From IMG/VR virus record IMGVR_UViG_3300035182_001152: DNA of 64,000 nucleotides. One strand, written 5' to 3'. The stretch is from a virus (Duplodnaviria > Caudoviricetes). The translations under genes and the position numbers were made by a program. Shown here in pieces: positions 9,378 through 29,481 of this stretch (the first letter of the stretch is position 1; each line of letters opens with the position of its first letter). The notes under the pieces were generated by a model. That model did not search any database. It had not been told where the DNA came from and worked only from the letters and a program-made list of their open reading frames with translations.

Positions 9378-9966
9378 GTGGGTTACTTTGCTGGATAAGC
9401 CAAATGCTGTCAAAGTTGGCCGCACAATGGGCATTTGTATGGGAAACCCAGCAGATCAATCATACATCCACATGCACGCGGATAGGTTAGTTGCACATTG
9501 TCTTGAAGATTCAAACGGCGTTGCGACTGCTGTATTCTTCCATCACCCTGAATGGGATGCTGTGTCAGCAATTGGTGGAATTCGTGCCGTACCTTTCAAC
9601 AATGGTGAATTTGCTGTGGAGTTTTGTCAACGCTTCAACGAGCTTGGTGTAAAGCGAACGCTTAACTCCTCTGCTCGCAGGGCGGGTTACTGCCAAGTCA
9701 ACGGTTCGTGGACGAATACTCACTTGTTTTCAGAGGGGATGGTTGTTGATCATCCCCTTAATTTGACCAACTTTACCCGACTTCACTCCCTACCCGACAA
9801 CATGACCGTCAACGGTGATCTAATCCTGGCTCGCACGAGTCTGGTATATCTTCCCAAGAATCTGACCGTCAAAGGAACGCTCGATATTCGGTTCAGTCCA
9901 ATCTGGACGCGTCCCGAGGGTCTCAACGTTGAAAAAATTCGTACACACGCCGGAAAAGTGCTGTAA
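9361..9966 (+). CDS. Hypothetical protein with C-terminal LRR-like repeats
   Basis: LPDNMTVNGDLIL / LPKNLTVKGTLDI repeats; start refined to 9361. Confidence 0.7.
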   Translation: MSTTYKWVTLLDKPNAVKVGRTMGICMGNPADQSYIHMHADRLVAHCLEDSNGVATAVFFHHPEWDAVSAIGGIRAVPFNNGEFAVEFCQRFNELGVKRTLNSSARRAGYCQVNGSWTNTHLFSEGMVVDHPLNLTNFTRLHSLPDNMTVNGDLILARTSLVYLPKNLTVKGTLDIRFSPIWTRPEGLNVEKIRTHAGKVL

Positions 9967-11104: not shown

Positions 11105-11683
11105 ATGGATATTGACATCGACTTCAAGACAACGTTTGACCCGTGCCGCATTATGAGGCAGGCCATTCCTGCTTCTATGGTCAAAAATGGTGCACTCGTA
11201 AAGCACAACTGTGGGCACTACTTTCAGCAAATTCCAATTGACAAAGTCACGGGATTTGCTGCGATTCCGTATGAAGAGGCGGAAGCTCTTGGGTATTTTA
11301 AGATCGACTTCCTACACTTGTCCGTGTTGGATTCGTTCGACAGCAAGGCTGAAATGCGCGAGATGCTTCAGCGAGAGCCTGATTGGTCAATATTGCTCGA
11401 TGAATCGCAAGTGCCAAAGTTGTTCCACGTTGGTAAGTATGCTGATTTGCTCACACGAATCAAACCAAACTCCGTGCAACAGTTGGCGGATTGTCTTGCC
11501 TTGATTCGCCCTGCGAAGAGATACTTGCTGAGCAAGTATATGAAAGATAAGGACAGCCTGGCCACCCGACGTGAACTATATCAAAAGGTTGAAGGCGCCT
11601 ACTACTTCAAGAAGTCACACGCTATCTCTTACGCGTTAACCATTACACTGCAACTGCACCTAATCTCTCAAGGTCGCCTATAA
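11105..11683 (+). CDS. DNA polymerase III alpha (DnaE)-like fragment
   Basis: MDIDIDF, FKIDFL, LALIRP, YYFKKSHAISYA motifs in only 192 aa. Confidence 0.8.
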   Translation: MDIDIDFKTTFDPCRIMRQAIPASMVKNGALVKHNCGHYFQQIPIDKVTGFAAIPYEEAEALGYFKIDFLHLSVLDSFDSKAEMREMLQREPDWSILLDESQVPKLFHVGKYADLLTRIKPNSVQQLADCLALIRPAKRYLLSKYMKDKDSLATRRELYQKVEGAYYFKKSHAISYALTITLQLHLISQGRL

Positions 11684-15184: not shown

Positions 15185-15512
15185 CAACTGCACCTTGAAT
15201 CGTGGGGACTGAGTACTTTGTTGGAGCACTGAAGGATGTGTCGACTGTCACTTCCTCTGCCGGCATTTGAAGGGCGCGCTTTTGCGCCTCGAGGCTCTGC
15301 ATCGTGCCAACCAACTGAAGGACTTCCTTGCTGACGTCCTTGAACTTCTTACTGAAGTACTTCTTCTTGGTTTGCGTCTTTGAGCCGTCAATGGCCTTGC
15401 GATATTGAGAGGCTAGACCTACTAGGATCTGGAGTCTCTGTTCAACAACGCCGTGCCAATGATCGAGGCGATCGTCACGTGCAGCGTTGCTGATTTCTGA
15501 ATTGCGGTTCAT
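15165..15512 (-). CDS. Hypothetical protein
   Basis: GGAG RBS before ATG 15512. Confidence 0.65.
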   Translation of the reverse strand: MNRNSEISNAARDDRLDHWHGVVEQRLQILVGLASQYRKAIDGSKTQTKKKYFSKKFKDVSKEVLQLVGTMQSLEAQKRALQMPAEEVTVDTSFSAPTKYSVPTIQGAVDDAVIV

Positions 15513-15585
15513 AACGTCTCCTGTTGTTATTGGAGACAATATACAGGAAGACCCACTAAACTTCAACAATCTAGTGGGTCTTGGA

Positions 15586-16218
15586 TCAGTTTGGAAGGCC
15601 GCGAATCAAGATCATCTCAGCGTTGCCAGCTGACCAGATTTCGTATGTTTGAGATCCGTCTGGTGACGCTGTCTTGTTGGGCGGAATGTCAGTCCCTGCA
15701 AGGATTGCCTTTTTGACGTTCAGCTCATCACGGAGCGTTGAAACGTTGTACACCCACAGCTCCTCAAATGTGCCGTCTTCGGTGTTGCGTTTGTACACCA
15801 AGTGTGCGTCTTTGACAGTGCGGATTAGACCCTGACGATCGGGATCTTCAGTAGCATCACCCGCTAATCCGTCTAGCTCCGGGTGCTCATCCTCACCTTC
15901 TGCTTGGTCGTTAGCCTCAGGCTCTCCCAGGTCATATTCTTCATCAGATGGGCCGTCGCTAGGTGTCCCGACAACACCTCCACCAGAGCCTCCTGCGGGA
16001 GGTGTGAACGGGGCACCTTCATCGGGAGGGCCCATCTCACCAGCAGGCAGCTCATCGTCCTCCGGCTCGCCCAGAGTGGTGTCGTATTCGAAGTCGTCCG
16101 AAGGTTCGCTGTCTGTCGGTTCTTCTGAGCTGAGATCCAGCTCGTCATCGCCCGTAGGTTGATCCTCAGGCTCGACGAGCCTACGAACACCCTTCAGCAC
16201 TTCTCGCAAAAATTCCAT
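15586..16218 (-). CDS. Acidic late protein with globular C-terminal domain
   Basis: Asp/Glu/Pro-rich N-half; late promoter and RBS hairpin upstream. Confidence 0.75.
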   Translation of the reverse strand: MEFLREVLKGVRRLVEPEDQPTGDDELDLSSEEPTDSEPSDDFEYDTTLGEPEDDELPAGEMGPPDEGAPFTPPAGGSGGGVVGTPSDGPSDEEYDLGEPEANDQAEGEDEHPELDGLAGDATEDPDRQGLIRTVKDAHLVYKRNTEDGTFEELWVYNVSTLRDELNVKKAILAGTDIPPNKTASPDGSQTYEIWSAGNAEMILIRGLPN

Positions 16219-16253: not shown

Positions 16254-17321
16254 TTAGCAGAAATGATGACGGCCAAACATCTTGACCCAGATGTGCTTTG
16301 ACTTCTCGACGTATGCCTTCAGAGAGAGTTCATTCATGAACACATTCCAGCGCTTGAAGCGCCATGCCCACAGCATTGCTTTAGCGATGTCCTCTGAGCC
16401 AGTTGGATCACAAATGCCAGCCTTTGCCCACGGAACTTCACGCGACATTACCATTGGGACGCCGCACATAATCATGTCAGCAGCGACAATGTTGAACGTT
16501 TCAGAGAAGCTGACTTGCATGCCAAGGTCCATGTCCTTGATGATCTCAATGAACTTGTCATGTGGCGTCCATTGGTGACATACCAACTCGTGGCCTTCAT
16601 CGGCGAGACCGGCAAATAGGCCCTGCAGATTGTGCAGAATTGGATCACCCTTACCCTCAATGCGGCCGATGTTGATGTGGAATCGCAGCTTTTTGCCAAT
16701 TTCCTCTGCAAACTTCAGGGCAGCGATTGCCTGCACAAGGTGATTCTTTAGAGGACGGATGGCACCAAAGCACGAAACGTCAACATACTCACCGTGATCG
16801 TGCTTACGGGGAGCGTGGCACCTATCAACAGGGTAGTAGTTTGGCATGTAGCGAATGCGATCTTCAATCTCATCTTCGCTGTAACCAGCAGCGGACATCA
16901 CGTCTTCCAGCTCGCGCATAAAGCGTGGAGCATTGACGCCAAACTTAACGGTTGGATACTTCAGATAACCAAAGAACCAACGCATTGCAATTCCTTCCAT
17001 TGCAATGAAAGGGGCTTCACTGTGGAAACGAACGATCCACTGCACTTTTGGGTGCAACTTGGACAGCACTTCAAACTTCTCCGGAACAACCCAGAGAGCT
17101 TCGATAATCACGTGTGTTGGCTTGTATGCAGTAACTTCGCGGTCGATGCAATTATTGTCAACAACCACTACAACTTTCGCTTCAATGCCAGCGTCAACTA
17201 GCATGTCACAAACGAAAGTGGCTGAATTTAGCAAGCCGGTCGAAATTCCGTGCTCACTGTATGATGGATCCTGGCAGTAATCTTCCCGACGCTTGAGGAT
17301 AAAAAGGACGCGCGTTGTCAT
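16254..17321 (-). CDS. Glycosyltransferase-like protein (GT-B type)
   Basis: FGAIRPLKNH, SFSETFNIVAAD..CGVP motifs; start refined to 17321. Confidence 0.75.
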   Translation of the reverse strand: MTTRVLFILKRREDYCQDPSYSEHGISTGLLNSATFVCDMLVDAGIEAKVVVVVDNNCIDREVTAYKPTHVIIEALWVVPEKFEVLSKLHPKVQWIVRFHSEAPFIAMEGIAMRWFFGYLKYPTVKFGVNAPRFMRELEDVMSAAGYSEDEIEDRIRYMPNYYPVDRCHAPRKHDHGEYVDVSCFGAIRPLKNHLVQAIAALKFAEEIGKKLRFHINIGRIEGKGDPILHNLQGLFAGLADEGHELVCHQWTPHDKFIEIIKDMDLGMQVSFSETFNIVAADMIMCGVPMVMSREVPWAKAGICDPTGSEDIAKAMLWAWRFKRWNVFMNELSLKAYVEKSKHIWVKMFGRHHFC

Positions 17322-18438: not shown

Positions 18439-19506
18439 TTAGCGTAGTCCGCCTGGTATTCCTTTGGATACTACCGCGGTCGCACTCCAGGGATGGAGGC
18501 TCTCGAGGTGCTCCGTCACGATCGAGAAGTCGCTGATCTTACCCTCGTCGTATATTGCGTCAAGGCCTTGGTACATTAGACGCGATGCATCTTCTGTGAA
18601 CAGAAGATTGGAACCATTCAGTTCAGCGAACGCCTGCTCATCACGACGCTTGCAAATGATCACAACTTCCGTGGGGATTTGCTTGCGAGCCATCTCAATG
18701 ATGTCTTCAATGTACACAATGTGCTTTTCTGGATTGAACTGCACGGTGATCTTTGCAATCGAACGTTGACTGTGGCCATTCGCCGCTTGACCACGCTTGA
18801 GTGTTGCGTCTTGTGCAAGCTCAAACGAGCACGGGCATGTTGATGAGTACACGTAGTTGACTGTCAGGAAGAACGTATACACGCCGCTGTGAGATTGCGC
18901 TTCCAAAACGCAGTCATAGAAGATGTGACCGATTGCCTTTTTGTGACTGAGATACACGCCTTCTACTTCCTTGAAGAAGTCAGGGCTTGCCTTCAGAGCT
19001 TCAACGCTACCGAAGTCTTCCACCTTCAGGTCTTGGCGGGTACGGAGAGCCTCCTGTGTCCACGGATACTTGAACCGCAGCTTACAGTAGGTGCTGTTGC
19101 TGCCCTGCTTAGCCTGCAGCTTGTTCAGCACGCCCTTGAGGCCATCAATCGATAGGTGGCCGGCAATTTCCTCGTGCATGACAATTGGGAATCGCGACAG
19201 GTTCAGACCCTTTGCGTTCGGGTTGTCAAGTGAACCATACAGTGATGCCTCGGCTTGCAGCTCTTGAACTGTGCCATCGCGGCGCAGGAACTTGATCGGG
19301 AGATGTACGCCATTCACACCAACCTTGTCCAATTGAACGCGGAGGCCCGGAATGAACGGATCGATCTGTGGATCGGGTAGGTCAGCATCCTCAGGATAGT
19401 AGTCCGCATCGTACTGAAACTTCAGATGCGGCATGTGCTGTGTGTAGTCGTTGAAGCGGAACCGACGACCACGCACGACGTTCCCTAGATATTGTTCTTG
19501 TGACAT
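18439..19506 (-). CDS. folE2: GTP cyclohydrolase IB
   Basis: KGLNLSRF, STCPCS, HSQRS, FTED, ESLHPWSA motifs. Confidence 0.9.
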   Translation of the reverse strand: MSQEQYLGNVVRGRRFRFNDYTQHMPHLKFQYDADYYPEDADLPDPQIDPFIPGLRVQLDKVGVNGVHLPIKFLRRDGTVQELQAEASLYGSLDNPNAKGLNLSRFPIVMHEEIAGHLSIDGLKGVLNKLQAKQGSNSTYCKLRFKYPWTQEALRTRQDLKVEDFGSVEALKASPDFFKEVEGVYLSHKKAIGHIFYDCVLEAQSHSGVYTFFLTVNYVYSSTCPCSFELAQDATLKRGQAANGHSQRSIAKITVQFNPEKHIVYIEDIIEMARKQIPTEVVIICKRRDEQAFAELNGSNLLFTEDASRLMYQGLDAIYDEGKISDFSIVTEHLESLHPWSATAVVSKGIPGGLR

Positions 19507-22027: not shown

Positions 22028-22435
22028 TCAACAGGCAGTTTTCGTGACTTCAGGCATTTGACCTGGCCTCATGATCATCGTATGGCGCTCACGCGTAGTC
22101 TCATTGTTAGAGTCATCGACGAACACCACAGTATGGTCGAATCGGAACGCCAAGCCGACGTCAGCTTCGCAGATCGTGTAGATTACGACCTTATCGCCGG
22201 GCGAGAAATGGTGGGCGGGAGGACCATTCAGCACAATATCACCCGGCTCACCAGGAATCGCATATGTTTCCCAGTGTTTGCCATTGGCCACATTGTTTAC
22301 GTGGACGAATTCGTACGGCAGGATTCCTGCTGACGCCATCAGGTTTGGATCAATCGAGATACTGCCGACGTAGTTCAGGTCAGCATCTGTCACCGTAGCT
22401 CGGTGAATCTTTGATCGAACAAATGTGCGCTTCAT
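22028..22435 (-). CDS. panD: Aspartate 1-decarboxylase
   Basis: SKIHRATVTDADLNYVGSISID (GS autocleavage), ETYAI, NG..AH..GD. Confidence 0.92.
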   Translation of the reverse strand: MKRTFVRSKIHRATVTDADLNYVGSISIDPNLMASAGILPYEFVHVNNVANGKHWETYAIPGEPGDIVLNGPPAHHFSPGDKVVIYTICEADVGLAFRFDHTVVFVDDSNNETTRERHTMIMRPGQMPEVTKTAC

Positions 22436-22874: not shown

Positions 22875-23270
22875 GGTGTGTATTTGGTATGCTACGGGAT
22901 TGCACCGTAACCATCGACTTAACGACTTTCGCTAGTGGTTCATCCGCTTCAGTTACGTGCATTCGCGGAGCTCTATTCGAGTTCTGTAAGAGTTGACGCA
23001 CAGAGCACGTACTAACTGGCCAACTCTAAACATTGTGCGCACGGGGACTATCGAAATCGCCTTTCACCGCTTTGCAAGCGGCACCATCACCCTTCTGGCT
23101 CGCACGCATTAAAAGCTTGCTGGTATACCAGCAACTTGGTTAGCCCGCATCTCGTTTGAGTCGTATCACTTCTTAGCTGTCGAAGGCTTAACGGCGCTGC
23201 TATTTGGGTTACCAAGCACGTGACACGAGATCGCACCATCACGTACGCACACTAAAGTGCGTTAGCTTTT
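22875..23270 (-). ncRNA. Putative structured ncRNA downstream of tRNA-Ala
   Basis: ORF-free ~400 nt with many helices and a 3' T-arm-like hairpin TACGG-tgcaatc-CCGTA. Confidence 0.5.
23036..23107 (-). tRNA. Non-canonical tRNA-Cys(GCA)-like cloverleaf
   Basis: 7-bp acceptor GCGTGCG/CGTGCGC, D arm CCA..TGG, anticodon loop TTGCAAA, T loop TTCGATA; T-stem has a C-C mismatch, A73. Confidence 0.5.
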
Positions 23271-23345: not shown

Positions 23346-23351
23346 AGGGGA

Positions 23352-23592
23352 CGGTGGAGGATGGGGCCGCCCATCCTCTATGCTTCGTCGGCTCCGAAGC
23401 ACACCGTGAGTCTCTCATTCTAATACAACGCTTACTGTGGAAGGTTGCCCTTACGCCCGAATGAGTTAGGCCCAAGTCATTATCAGTTCCGTACGTCAGA
23501 CTTGGAATTGAGTACGAGAACATCGGCTTTGGTGTCATCTACCGACGGGGTGGTCAGCTTGCGCTGCTTAACACGAGACTTTCATCTCCACC
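23352..23592 (-). ncRNA. Putative structured ncRNA leading tRNA-Ala
   Basis: Terminal helix GGTGGAG/CTCCACC, at least six internal helices, directly after a sigma70 promoter. Confidence 0.55.
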
Positions 23593-23601
23593 AGTTCGTT
23601 A

Positions 23602-23630
23602 ACTATAACGGTTACCTATTTATCCGTCAA
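23602..23630 (-). promoter_or_regulatory. Sigma70-type promoter TTGACG-17-TATAGT
   Basis: Near-consensus, overlaps 3' end of macro-domain gene. Confidence 0.75.
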
Positions 23631-25782: not shown

Positions 25783-26115
25783 TTAGGTCGTCGAGAATGA
25801 GCTGCCACAACCACATGTTGATGTAGCGTTCGGATTGGCGATCTTGAATTGCGCACCCGTCAAGTCTTCCGTGAAGTCGACCGTTGCCTCAAACAGATAA
25901 AGCATACTGGATGGGTCAACTAGAACGCTAACCCCGTCATGCTCACTAACGTAGTCATCCTCATTGACGACATCATCCAGCGTAAACCCGTACTGAAAAC
26001 CCGCACATCCACCACCCTGGACGAATACGCGGAGTTTCAAACTTGGGTTGTTCTCTTCTGCAATGATCTCTTTGACCTTCGCTGCAGCGGCGGGCGTAAA
26101 AGTAATGTTGCTCAT
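25783..26115 (-). CDS. erpA: A-type Fe-S carrier protein (ErpA/IscA family)
   Basis: [30 protein letters not shown]. Confidence 0.9.
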
Positions 26116-26119
26116 CACC

Positions 26120-26566
26120 TTATTTAGCCAGCCCAAACTGGTTGAGAAACAGAGCCAATTCGATCTCCACGGCCGTCAACGACTCAACAGCAGCCTTCGT
26201 CGCTTCTTGTTCCACTGCCCGATCGCTGCGAAGCAGCAGGGCAGCTTCGTAGATCGCTTGAGGCACGACGATTCCTGTGCAGGTCATCAGACCGCCAAGC
26301 GATTGCTCGTCTTCGTGGAAGTTAGCGTACGGCAGTTGCAAGGCGTCACCAAAACGAGCAACCTCAGCAGCAACGGCAATTACACCGTGGTAGTGGCCAC
26401 CATTCAGGCAGATCATCGTCTTGTGGTTCGTAGCCCAGTCGTACAAAGTCGCCTTTTGTGGCGACTCGTCGATGTACTTGATGAACATTTCACCCATGCA
26501 ATGGCCCGGCTGAATGCCTTGTTGCACAGAATTGAGTATCCAGTTAGTGAAGGTGTAAAAACGCAT
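26120..26566 (-). CDS. Hypothetical protein, possibly Pth2-like fold
   Basis: [31 protein letters not shown] loosely resembles Pth2 layout. Confidence 0.45.
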
Positions 26567-26923: not shown

Positions 26924-27376
26924 TCATTGCTTGATTCGCTGAATCAGTAGTTCACGAACAGTAGCGGGGTCGCTCTTGTATCGCTTCATTACGCCGCCTA
27001 CCAACGAATTAAGAGCCTTCTCCACGCCCGATTTGAATTGGTCGACCGCCTTCTGTTGCTCAGCTATAACAGCCTCAATTGCTGCCGTCAGCTCCGGAGG
27101 TACGTTAGCCAGCATCTGCAACCGTCGCTTCTCTGCCTGCTTGCGCCGAGCGGTGCCGGGCGGCGTAACTTTTCGCTTTCCAGCAATGAACCGACTTGCG
27201 CACAGACGAATTTGATCAGCGGTTGTAGCAAAGCCCGCACGAGCGCACTTGTCTACATACCACTCTATCTGATACAGCTCATCCCAATGGGGTGTACGTT
27301 CCAGCAGGGGGATCAGTGCTTCAATATAACGGAATCGTTCCGCAGGAAACATGGGTACATTAGCGTTCGGCACCAT
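26924..27376 (-). CDS. Protein with GatB/YqeY-like C-terminal domain
   Basis: IEAVIAEQQKAVDQFKSGVEKALNSLVGGVMKR..DPATVRELL. Confidence 0.7.
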   Translation of the reverse strand: MVPNANVPMFPAERFRYIEALIPLLERTPHWDELYQIEWYVDKCARAGFATTADQIRLCASRFIAGKRKVTPPGTARRKQAEKRRLQMLANVPPELTAAIEAVIAEQQKAVDQFKSGVEKALNSLVGGVMKRYKSDPATVRELLIQRIKQ

Positions 27377-27959
27377 TGATCACTTCAAGTAGTTCGAGCT
27401 GTGACGTCATCACGTGTTTGATGTTCTCGTACGCAGCTTCTTGTTTCGGAAAAAGACGACGGGCAGTCTTCAACATCGGAAGAAACAAAGTCCTCGCCTC
27501 TTCCATATACTTGATTCGCTTCTCCAGCGTAAACACACCAACCATCGTTTGCATGTTGTGACAGCGATCACCACCCTTTGCAAGAGATGCGATTGGATGC
27601 AGACCAATGTCTTCCATCATCTTTGCTTGCTGCTTGCCGTTCTTGTCCATCAGGAACACTGCTTGTCCAACGCGAGGGCCGAACCGGTTCGCAATCTCCG
27701 AGTGTGGGACACCGTAGTCTTCCGGGACATCATGCAAGAGGACGGCGGCCAGCGTGTCCTCTGGAAACATCATCGATGGCAGTAGCGTGCGCAGGTAGTG
27801 CGCAATCTCAATTTGATGTTGGAACTCAGGCGTGACACCATCCTTGCGTGTCCCTACATGGTACTGGGATGCGAATTGCAACGCGTCAGCGGCCATGTAG
27901 AATTCCCGGCCAAGCAGGAAATATCGCAGCGAGATGTACAGTTTCTTATAGTCTTCCAT
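27360..27959 (-). CDS. HD-domain hydrolase (SpoT/Mesh1-like)
   Basis: YHVGTRKDGVTPEFQH, AAVLLHDVPED, AKGGDRCHNM. Confidence 0.82.
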   Translation of the reverse strand: MEDYKKLYISLRYFLLGREFYMAADALQFASQYHVGTRKDGVTPEFQHQIEIAHYLRTLLPSMMFPEDTLAAVLLHDVPEDYGVPHSEIANRFGPRVGQAVFLMDKNGKQQAKMMEDIGLHPIASLAKGGDRCHNMQTMVGVFTLEKRIKYMEEARTLFLPMLKTARRLFPKQEAAYENIKHVMTSQLELLEVINGAER

Positions 27960-28008: not shown

Positions 28009-28338
28009 CTATTCAGCTGCGTTGGCCGTTTTGACGTAGTCTTTCGGCCGCATCTTCCCAGCGCGACCTGCTTTGGACCATTCGTAGTCGTGACCGTCCG
28101 GTGTCTTACCGTCAATGATCGATGCAACGCCAAGCTGACCGACGTTGTTCATGTCCTCCGACGCCATGGTGATCATTGAGATACGGGCACCTCCACGACG
28201 ACGTGTGCGCAATTCCTCAGAGAACTTCAGCGCTTGGGCCAGTTCAGACGGGGGGAACTCACGCGACTGAGGTTCACGCACCAACGCTGGTGCTAGTGAG
28301 TCTGTGTAGGACTCTTCAGTCCAGTATACTGTGTACAT
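28009..28338 (-). CDS. Hypothetical protein
   Basis: AAGGA RBS; ORF. Confidence 0.65.
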   Translation of the reverse strand: MYTVYWTEESYTDSLAPALVREPQSREFPPSELAQALKFSEELRTRRRGGARISMITMASEDMNNVGQLGVASIIDGKTPDGHDYEWSKAGRAGKMRPKDYVKTANAAE

Positions 28339-28409
28339 TTTGTTCCTTGTGCAATTGCGGCATGATCATCGCAATTGGCACAAAGATCAACAGCAATAAA
28401 CCGACATGA

Positions 28410-28608
28410 GGGGCCTTGAGGTTTCTTTTGGCGTTCCCTCTACACACTACATTCGCCCGCGCGCTGGGTTACTAGCACCAAGTGCAGCTAGTTCTCACGA
28501 TACTAGCCTGTCTAAATTTGGATGTCGAGCACGGAGGCTTCGTCTCGACGCGCCTGTTAACACTCTCAAGCTCGAGAGGGGCTCGAACGGTTTCGAGCGG
28601 CTCCACCA
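28410..28608. ncRNA. Structured element with tmRNA/tRNA-Ala-like termini
   Basis: + strand begins GGGGCC and ends GGGGCTCGAACGGTTTCGAGCGGCTCCACCA; multiple hairpins; minus-strand promoter at 28668-28639. Confidence 0.45.
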
Positions 28609-28635
28609 ACTGAGTTGCTTGCACATTTCAGTGAG

Positions 28636-29481
28636 TTAACTATCAGTCTCACCCAATTTTTTCGTCAACGGCGTCATCTTAAACACAGACTTGGGTTTGG
28701 AGCCGGGTACGTCTCGCCACCCCTCATCGATTAGGCGATCGTACAGCCCTTCGTTCAGGATGCTCTCAACGTACGTGCACCGGAATGGGTTGATCTGATG
28801 CATATGGTTGATTACCCGCATGCCAAGACCTCGGCCTCTGAATTGCTCAGAGACTGTAATTGTACCAATGTCAAAGGATTGGATCAATGCGCCTGAGATC
28901 GCATGATGAGCCTTACGGGTATACACACTGATGATGTCGTCTCCATATACCCAATGGTTAGGATATGGTCCATCAAGGAATCCCTGGATCTCCTGCTTGA
29001 ACGAAGTAAACGCCTGGTTACAGACGTCTACGCAATTTCGCTCAAATAAGGCCAGGTCTGACATGTCACACCAGGCGGCTACGATTGCATTCACGTAGTG
29101 AAGATTGCTCTCCGCCACGAGGCCATTGCTGTTGCTGTTGGAGCGAGCAGCATCAACGATGTTCTTCGCTTCTTTCAGGCCAAGCTTGGTGTTCTCACGG
29201 ACCATCTTGATCGCCGAGATGAGCCCACCACTGCGGAGCAGGCTGGCGACATCGCCAGCCCACCTTGGGTCAGCGGGTGCGGTCTTCGTCACGACGCCGG
29301 CGTCGTGCAGTTGGACGAAGATTGCCGGATGCTTTTTGGCAAGAGCCAAGGCAATCGCATGAGAGTCGTAGTTGCCTGATGCAATGATGTCGACGATGCG
29401 CTCATGAACCTCGTTGGAGGTTGACGTGGGCGTCGGCTGCAGAGAGATGCGACGTTGAGATTGCTGTTGTTGCTTGGACAT
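28636..29481 (-). CDS. Ribosomal L7/L12 CTD-like domain fused to GNAT-like domain
   Basis: SAIKMVRENTKLGLKEAKNIVD; ITVSEQFRGRGLG acetyl-CoA motif. Confidence 0.7.
   Translation of the reverse strand: MSKQQQQSQRRISLQPTPTSTSNEVHERIVDIIASGNYDSHAIALALAKKHPAIFVQLHDAGVVTKTAPADPRWAGDVASLLRSGGLISAIKMVRENTKLGLKEAKNIVDAARSNSNSNGLVAESNLHYVNAIVAAWCDMSDLALFERNCVDVCNQAFTSFKQEIQGFLDGPYPNHWVYGDDIISVYTRKAHHAISGALIQSFDIGTITVSEQFRGRGLGMRVINHMHQINPFRCTYVESILNEGLYDRLIDEGWRDVPGSKPKSVFKMTPLTKKLGETDS

What the first reader, a model, noticed from the sequence alone, without database searches (positions are those of the whole stretch)
28410..28668. tmRNA-end mimic that appears to be transcribed antisense
Seen: + strand 28578-28608 reads GGGGCTCGAACGGTTTCGA-GCGGCTCCACCA, resembling a tmRNA 5' end (GGGG..GGxTTCGA) joined to a tmRNA/tRNA-Ala 3' end (G3-U70, ACCA). 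GGGGCC at 28410 can also pair with that 3' end. The only promoter-like sequence nearby (TTGACG-18-GATAGT) and all neighbouring genes point to the minus strand. Inference: either an alanylatable minihelix or reduced tmRNA, or an antisense RNA that could pair with host tmRNA/tRNA-Ala ends.
Basis: partly seen in the sequence, partly recalled or inferred. Interest (0 to 1): 0.64.

Follow-up and report, generated by a model that had tools for sequence, protein, structure and literature searches.

The report
Phage RNA clamping alanine acceptor stems
An uncultured jumbo phage carries a conserved, folded RNA whose two ends are complementary to both strands of the alanine-accepting stem of the host's ribosome-rescue RNA (tmRNA) and of some alanine tRNAs, so it probably pries that stem open and blocks it; I found no such RNA in Rfam or in the papers searched, and neither expression nor binding has been shown.

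Summary
The motif is real and beyond chance: 27.9 bits, null maximum 21.2. It is the 5' part of a ~230-nt structured RNA on the MINUS strand (28632 to ~28400) of a RsoM2USA-like jumbo phage. Homologs occur at the same locus in four related contigs (one truncated, two near-identical and ~370 nt). Promoter register, GNRA loops and G-U wobbles favour the minus strand, so the plus-strand minihelix or reduced-tmRNA idea is not supported. All homologs keep a leader helix flush against UGGUGGAGC (complement of alanine-acceptor nt 68-76), a covarying hairpin, and GCCC(C/U); full-length ones also keep a 3' arm complementary to acceptor nt 1-5. Predicted binding: tmRNA tRNA-like domain -19 kcal/mol, GGGGC-type tRNA-Ala -17, the phage's own tRNA-Ala -10, shuffles -5. 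D-loop complementarity holds in the window and partly in L019, not in the long homologs. A second family with the same module sits upstream of tRNA-Ala. Best reading: an antisense clamp on host tmRNA and/or tRNA-Ala. No RNA data; host unknown. The scan earlier noted different, tag-bearing anti-tmRNA RNAs in enterobacterial phages; this one has no tag frame.

The parts
28639..28668 (-). sigma70-like promoter (-35 at 28668-28663, -10 at 28644-28639), overlapping the end of the L7/L12-GNAT gene
   Evidence: a similar -35/-10 pair lies 6 nt before the leader helix in L018 and L019, weaker in L122/L123
28609..28632 (-). leader helix starting at the predicted +1, GCAA-capped, ending flush with the 5' arm
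   Evidence: folds in window, L018, L019 and L122 with different sequences; 10 bp with G-U pairs in L122
28598..28608 (-). 5' arm UGGUGGAGC(CG): complement of alanine-acceptor nt 68-76 (66-76 for GGGGCCG-type tmRNA); UGGU is the likely toehold
   Evidence: 9 nt invariant in all five family-1 loci; pairs with the target 3' end in cofolds
28578..28598 (-). 7-bp hairpin followed by GCCCC; in the window its sequence is also complementary to tmRNA nt 1-19
   Evidence: 92% of cells paired, 4 of 6 pairs with two-sided changes; p=0.006 against pair-preserving shuffles for the window, not significant for L018, L019, L122
28524..28578 (-). two small hairpins (28563-28578 and 28524-28549); L122/L123 carry a ~150-nt insertion in this part
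   Evidence: compensatory G-C to A-U change in L018/L019
28456..28519 (-). structured core: CAAAUU motif, GNRA hairpin (28488-28506), short hairpin, and a 3-bp stem with a GCGCGC loop (28456-28468)
   Evidence: loops GUGA/GCGA/GUGA/GUAA in four homologs; two-sided changes in both stems
28410..28426 (-). 3' arm: GAAACC (complement of tmRNA D-loop nt 12-17) then GGCCCC (complement of acceptor nt 1-6)
   Evidence: pairs with tmRNA nt 1-6 and 12-17 in cofolds; linker test p=0.05 window, 0.009 L019, not significant in L122/L123
28400..28632 (-). whole predicted RNA (family 1), ~230 nt; 3' end approximate, set by a long-range helix between 28509-28512 and 28403-28406
   Evidence: homologs L019 (full), L122/L123 (~370 nt), L018 (3' half deleted); long-range helix read by eye from these sequences
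23346..23595 (-). family-2 RNA upstream of tRNA-Ala; relatives carry the same 5' module, which is diverged in the window copy
   Evidence: homologs in L018, L118, L120, L124, L125, L129, L244
23272..23345 (-). phage tRNA-Ala(UGC) with a GGGGG-type acceptor, predicted to bind the clamp much less well
   Evidence: -9.8 kcal/mol against -17.4 for GGGGC-type tRNA-Ala

Best explanation
A trans-acting phage RNA, made from an early sigma70-like promoter on the minus strand, clamps host RNAs that have an alanine-type (G3-U70) acceptor stem, with tmRNA the most likely target and GGGGC-type tRNA-Ala a likely co-target. Shown in sequence: conservation, strand signals, and complementarity of both arms. 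Inferred: the free UGGU pairs with the target's ACCA end and stacks on the leader helix; pairing then runs through nt 68; the 3' arm (or the GCCCC after the hairpin) captures nt 1-6 and part of the D-loop. Exchanging strands turns the target's G3-U70 wobble, and the mirror A-C mismatch between the phage RNA's own arms, into Watson-Crick pairs, which would give alanine specificity. The opened acceptor could not be charged or delivered by EF-Tu/SmpB, so trans-translation tagging would fall during infection, while the phage's own tRNA-Ala largely escapes.
For: Conserved at the syntenic locus. The minus strand has the lower folding z-score in 4 of 4 5' modules and GNRA loops in 4 of 4 cores. The 9-nt arm is invariant while the adjacent hairpin covaries. 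The 3' arm varies (GCCCC or GUCCU) only in ways that still pair with GGGGC. Cofold gain for the window RNA is -19 kcal/mol with GGGGC-type tRNA-like domains, against -5.0 +/- 2.9 for shuffled RNA, -4 for the plus strand and a median of -4.6 across tRNA isotypes. Family 2 independently carries complements of tmRNA nt 70-76, 16-23 and 1-10 (p=0.002-0.004 in three related loci) and lies upstream of tRNA-Ala in every locus seen.
Against: No RNA evidence, and the host is unknown; the tmRNA panel is mostly Burkholderiales, chosen by me. Only four distinct full-length homologs exist (two nearly identical). D-loop complementarity fails in L122/L123, which bind tRNA-Ala better than tmRNA (-19.9 against -15.3). 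Segments for the tests were chosen after seeing the data. Only 7 of 30 sampled Burkholderiales tmRNAs have the matching acceptor. A clamp does not explain the ~150-nt conserved core. Several close relatives lack family 1 in the 20 kb seen. The whole 236-nt stretch folds better on the plus strand in the window (z -2.85 against -0.59).
Confidence: 0.55

Rival explanations
1. Cis-acting sensor, T-box-like in logic: the RNA is a 5' leader that binds the free 3' end of uncharged tRNA-Ala or tmRNA and switches on the downstream genes (109-aa gene and HD alarmone-hydrolase-like gene; tRNA-Ala for family 2).
For: It lies between a promoter and co-oriented genes; no terminator match follows it; UGGU would pair with ACCA as in T-box antiterminators (own knowledge); the GAGGG segment has two alternative partners; an HD_4 / RelA-SpoT-like gene lies downstream.
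Against: The next gene differs between homologs (109-aa against 54-aa). The hairpin that occludes the ribosome-binding site stays when the core is deleted (L018). No conserved terminator/antiterminator or anti-SD switch was seen, and there is no Rfam T-box match.
Confidence: 0.14
2. The RNA captures the tmRNA or tRNA-Ala end in order to use it: the structured core catalyses or scaffolds ligation, cleavage, priming or redirection at the nick where the target's 3' end meets the RNA's own 5' end.
For: In family 1 the leader helix starts at the predicted +1, 6 nt after the -10 box, and ends flush with UGGU, which would form a nicked duplex. The core is conserved beyond what a clamp needs.
Against: In family 2 the flush helix is not at the +1. 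No known ribozyme family matches. L018 keeps the 5' module without the core. There is no conserved tag reading frame.
Confidence: 0.12
3. Plus-strand tRNA-like decoy (reduced tmRNA like DS6A, or a minihelix) that is alanylated or titrates SmpB/AlaRS.
For: 28410-28415 pairs with 28599-28604 with G3-U70 and ACCA; L019 gives 7 bp with wobbles; the topology resembles a tRNA-like domain; the whole region folds with z -2.85 on the plus strand.
Against: No plus-strand promoter match; no T-loop; two A-C mismatches in L122/L123; the 5' acceptor strand is deleted in L018; GNRA loops and leader wobbles are on the other strand.
Confidence: 0.08
4. A structured RNA of unrelated function, or an inverted relic of a tmRNA/tRNA-Ala gene; the complementarity is inherited or incidental.
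For: The D-loop match is uneven across homologs; distribution is patchy; the window's family-2 copy pairs its 5' arm perfectly with its own 3' end.
Against: A 9-nt arm stays invariant while neighbouring stems change with compensation; the same module heads two otherwise unrelated RNA families; a tmRNA profile finds no homology in the body.
Confidence: 0.11

Closest known systems
tmRNA (Rfam RF00023) and TLD-only tmRNA of mycobacteriophage DS6A (PMC4131195, PMC11915505)
   Same: Phage-borne RNA tied to the tRNA-like domain; the DS6A-type molecule is reported to inhibit tmRNA, perhaps by titrating SmpB.
   Different: Here the tmRNA-like ends are on the strand that appears not to be transcribed; no T-loop, no tag frame, no Rfam or ARAGORN hit. 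Inhibition would be by base pairing, not mimicry.
T-box riboswitch antiterminator (own knowledge)
   Same: A UGGN segment pairs with the tRNA NCCA end and stacks on an adjacent helix.
   Different: Pairing would extend 9-11 nt and invade the acceptor stem on both strands; no Stem I/specifier and no terminator switch were found; no Rfam match.
Trans-acting antisense RNAs of phages, e.g. C4 of P1/P7 (own knowledge)
   Same: Small, structured, promoter-driven phage RNA acting by complementarity.
   Different: The target is a host stable RNA's acceptor stem, not a phage mRNA; no Rfam match.
Retroviral primer-binding site (own knowledge)
   Same: Begins UGG and is complementary to a tRNA 3' end, unwinding the acceptor.
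   Different: 9-11 nt instead of 18; a second arm targets the 5' strand; no reverse transcriptase was seen in the window or flanking loci (not searched genome-wide).
Tag-bearing anti-tmRNA RNAs of enterobacterial phages
   Same: Phage RNA with an arm complementary to host tmRNA.
   Different: Those are said to carry a tag template. This one has no conserved tag frame, no tmRNA-profile match and no sequence look-alike in the scan. I did not inspect those RNAs.

Membership tests
tmRNA (one-piece, permuted or TLD-only) | Match to Rfam or ARAGORN tmRNA models | tested here: not met
   the same Rfam search did find real permuted tmRNAs in other jumbo phages
tmRNA (one-piece, permuted or TLD-only) | 7-bp acceptor with G3-U70 and ACCA on the transcribed strand | tested here: not met
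   Present only on the plus strand (6 bp in the window; two mismatches in L122/L123); promoter and structure signals point to the minus strand
tmRNA (one-piece, permuted or TLD-only) | T-arm with T-loop consensus | tested here: not met
   The hairpin in that position has variable loops of 4-6 nt
tmRNA (one-piece, permuted or TLD-only) | Conserved tag reading frame ending in Ala-Ala-stop | tested here: not met
   Three-frame translations of five elements
tmRNA (one-piece, permuted or TLD-only) | Alanylation and SmpB binding | not testable with these tools
   Needs biochemistry
T-box riboswitch | UGGN segment able to pair with tRNA NCCA | tested here: met
   UGGU in all family-1 loci and most family-2 loci
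T-box riboswitch | Stem I with specifier loop; terminator/antiterminator or anti-SD switch | tested here: not met
   No Rfam hit at E<=10; no terminator match here
Trans-acting antisense RNA | Own promoter and conserved complementarity to a target encoded elsewhere | tested here: met
   (predictions; target taken from a surrogate host panel)
Trans-acting antisense RNA | Discrete transcript that binds and regulates the target | not testable with these tools
   No RNA run available; needs experiment
Group I intron / HDV-like ribozyme / RNase P | Core pairing order and motifs (P3-P7; nested double pseudoknot; P4) | tested here: not met
   No Rfam hit; manual mapping on alignments A2 and A5 did not fit

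The most novel reading that the evidence does not exclude
Jumbo phages encode a class of structured RNAs that recognise alanine identity by strand exchange: they invade both strands of the G3-U70 acceptor stem of tmRNA/tRNA-Ala, using ACCA as toehold, and shut down (or chemically capture) the host's ribosome-rescue RNA while the phage supplies an immune tRNA-Ala.
Probability: 0.45. Interest if true: 0.85.

Novelty: categorically new. Interest (0 to 1): 0.68.

Why it matters
Trans-translation is near-universal in bacteria. The phage interference I found described works by mimicry (DS6A) or by carrying whole tmRNA genes. A natural RNA that opens an acceptor stem by two-armed strand exchange would be a new way to attack stable RNAs, a new phage takeover strategy, and a compact, testable inhibitor of ribosome rescue. 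The predictions are precise to the nucleotide and can be tested in vitro or in a laboratory strain with short transcripts.

Tried and rejected
No whole genome is held. Blastn of the element and of two homologs against cultured phages found nothing relevant. Pattern scans of IMG/VR and JGI metagenomes gave none or only chance hits. A covariance model of the core found nothing in 45 more distant jumbo-phage records (no positive control among them). A weak nhmmer hit in L003 lies in coding sequence. An apparent sense likeness of the 3' region to the tmRNA helix-2 3' strand is not significant, and a full tmRNA profile does not hit: rejected. Group I, HDV-like/theta, RNase P and SRP Alu resemblances were recalled from memory and did not map. 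The tRNA-Ala control had wrongly completed 3' ends; the corrected values are. Sequencing runs: no RNA holder listed; DNA contigs of four runs show no variants in the element. ErpA identity (59-64% to beta- and gammaproteobacterial genomes) does not fix the host. Literature searches found no description; one paper was fetched under a wrong id.

Full report
Setting. The window is part of an uncultured jumbo phage from mat and sediment metagenomes. Its HD protein and the 109-aa protein beside the finding have their best cultured relatives in Ralstonia phage RsoM2USA. The finding lies in a 300-bp gap between an L7/L12-GNAT gene (28636-29481) and the 109-aa gene (28009-28338), both on the minus strand. 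ARAGORN and Rfam see only tRNA-Pro and tRNA-Ala in the window.

Observation. The sequence is as described. A joint profile of tmRNA 5' and 3' ends ranks it first in the window at 27.9 bits; Markov simulations of the window reach 14.5 on average and 21.2 at most. It is therefore more than chance, although homologs match this gapless profile poorly (10-14 bits).

Conservation. Protein searches led to syntenic contigs. L019 holds a full homolog, L018 one whose 3' half is deleted, and L122/L123 a ~370-nt version with an insertion. Other close relatives lack it in the 20 kb seen, and I found none in IMG/VR, JGI or cultured phages.

Strand. Reading the minus strand, the core hairpin is capped by GUGA, GCGA, GUGA or GUAA, all GNRA. 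The leader hairpins are capped by GCAA or GAAA. The 5' module has the lower folding z-score on this strand in four of four loci. A -35/-10 pair sits 6 nt before the leader helix in the window, L018 and L019, and more weakly in L122/L123. Against this, the whole region in the window folds better on the plus strand, and L019 forms a cleaner plus-strand acceptor. In L122/L123 that acceptor would have two A-C mismatches, and there is no T-loop in any homolog. I conclude that the RNA is on the minus strand.

Anatomy. From 28632: a leader helix; directly after it UGGUGGAGC, invariant in all five loci; a covarying hairpin (92% of cells paired, four pairs with two-sided changes); GCCC(C/U); two hairpins or a long insertion; a core with CAAAUU, the GNRA hairpin and a GCGCGC loop; then a linker and a 3' arm. 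The 5' arm is the complement of nt 68-76 of alanine-type acceptors. The 3' arm (GCCCC or GUCCU) pairs with nt 1-5. Paired with each other, the two arms always leave an A-C mismatch at the position that mirrors G3-U70, as expected if each arm is selected to pair with one strand of the target.

Target tests. With mini tRNA-like domains of GGGGC-type tmRNAs (panel), the window RNA gains -19 kcal/mol; shuffled RNAs gain -5.0 +/- 2.9, the plus strand -4, and the median tRNA isotype -4.6. With full-length tmRNAs of the GGGGCCG type it gains -20 to -27. Corrected values for tRNA-Ala are -17.4 (GGGGC-type) and -9.8 (the phage's own). In the predicted complex the 5' arm pairs with the target's 3' end flush against the leader helix, and the 3' arm takes nt 1-6 and 12-17. 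The hairpin module's match to tmRNA nt 6-24 beats pair-preserving shuffles in the window (p=0.006) but not in L018, L019 or L122. The 3' linker matches in the window and L019 (p=0.05 and 0.009) but not in L122/L123, which favour tRNA-Ala. The acceptor is thus the well-supported target; tmRNA against tRNA-Ala is not settled. These segments were chosen after seeing the data, and the true host is unknown.

Second family. Upstream of the phage tRNA-Ala gene, eight loci including the window (23595-23346) carry a different pseudoknotted RNA. Six of them show the same helix-UGGUGG-hairpin-GCC module; the window and L018 copies are diverged. In L120, L125 and L244 the module is complementary to tmRNA nt 70-76, 16-23 and 1-10 (p=0.002-0.004; related sequences, so not independent). 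One module heading two unrelated RNA bodies, one of them beside tRNA-Ala, is the strongest argument against coincidence.

Mechanism. Most likely (0.55) the RNA is an antisense clamp: toehold on ACCA, strand exchange through the acceptor, loss of alanylation and of trans-translation, with the phage tRNA-Ala spared. Conservation, strand signals and complementarity are shown; transcription, binding and effect are inferred. Rivals are a cis sensor for uncharged alanine acceptors (0.14), capture chemistry at the nick with the RNA's own 5' end (0.12), an unrelated function or relic (0.11), and a plus-strand decoy (0.08). The conserved core remains unexplained.

Known systems. It fails the tmRNA tests (Rfam, T-loop, tag frame). 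Phage tmRNAs and the inhibitory TLD-only DS6A form are sense molecules, and the two tmRNA surveys contain no mention of antisense forms (PMC4131195, PMC11915505). It shares UGGN-NCCA pairing with T-boxes but none of their other features. Searches of the held library found no description. Earlier notes of this scan describe tag-bearing anti-tmRNA RNAs in enterobacterial phages; they gave me a lead, are unverified, and differ from this RNA in carrying a tag.

Verdict. A real, conserved, uncatalogued phage RNA with a specific and testable target hypothesis, but few homologs and no expression data. Interest 0.68.

Noticed in passing
window 23346-23630 (-); L018 14740-15012, L118 14270-14405, L120 17028-17199, L124 14746-14919, L125 7672-7985, L129 15233-15425, L244 15991-16237: Family-2 RNA upstream of tRNA-Ala with covarying tandem pseudoknots and a variable insertion; no Rfam hit. 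In L124, L125 and L244 an HNH-like ORF appears to lie between it and the tRNA.
   Followed up: partly
window 22885-23267 (-); similar segments in L018 ~15500-15850, L120, L124, L125, L127 ~11140-11340, L244 ~16700-16950: A third conserved non-coding RNA downstream of tRNA-Ala; its 3' part recurs almost unchanged across the clade and recalls a twister ribozyme core (from memory); no Rfam hit.
   Followed up: no
window 28344-28386 (-): Long hairpin that buries the ribosome-binding site of the 109-aa gene; also present in L018 and L019.
   Followed up: partly
window 28636-29481 (-): L7/L12 C-terminal domain fused to a GNAT-like domain; in L018 the L12-like part is a separate gene followed by a 136-aa gene.
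   Followed up: partly
L227-L231 (records G002, G003, G059, G068, G060): Genuine permuted (alphaproteobacterial-type) tmRNA genes in five other jumbo-phage records, missed by ARAGORN.
   Followed up: partly
L120 9474-9542, L122 9695-9766, L118 ~9630-9700, L124 ~9650-9720: Compact tRNA-Ile(GAU)-like genes with atypical T-loops just upstream of the HD gene.
   Followed up: no
L245 (RsoM2USA 331860-331917, -); G001 259583-259634; G050 230377-230591: Unannotated short elements with tmRNA-like 3' ends, below the Rfam cut-off.
   Followed up: no
window 26924-27959, 25783-26136, 22028-22435, 18439-19506: Host-like genes: GatB/YqeY domain, HD_4 (RelA/SpoT-like hydrolase), ErpA, PanD, FolE2-like.
   Followed up: no
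window 23608-23624; L018 ~14730; L118 ~14235: A TAAATA (T4 late-promoter-like) motif lies just upstream of family 2; in the window and L018 it is inside the sigma70-like promoter.
   Followed up: no
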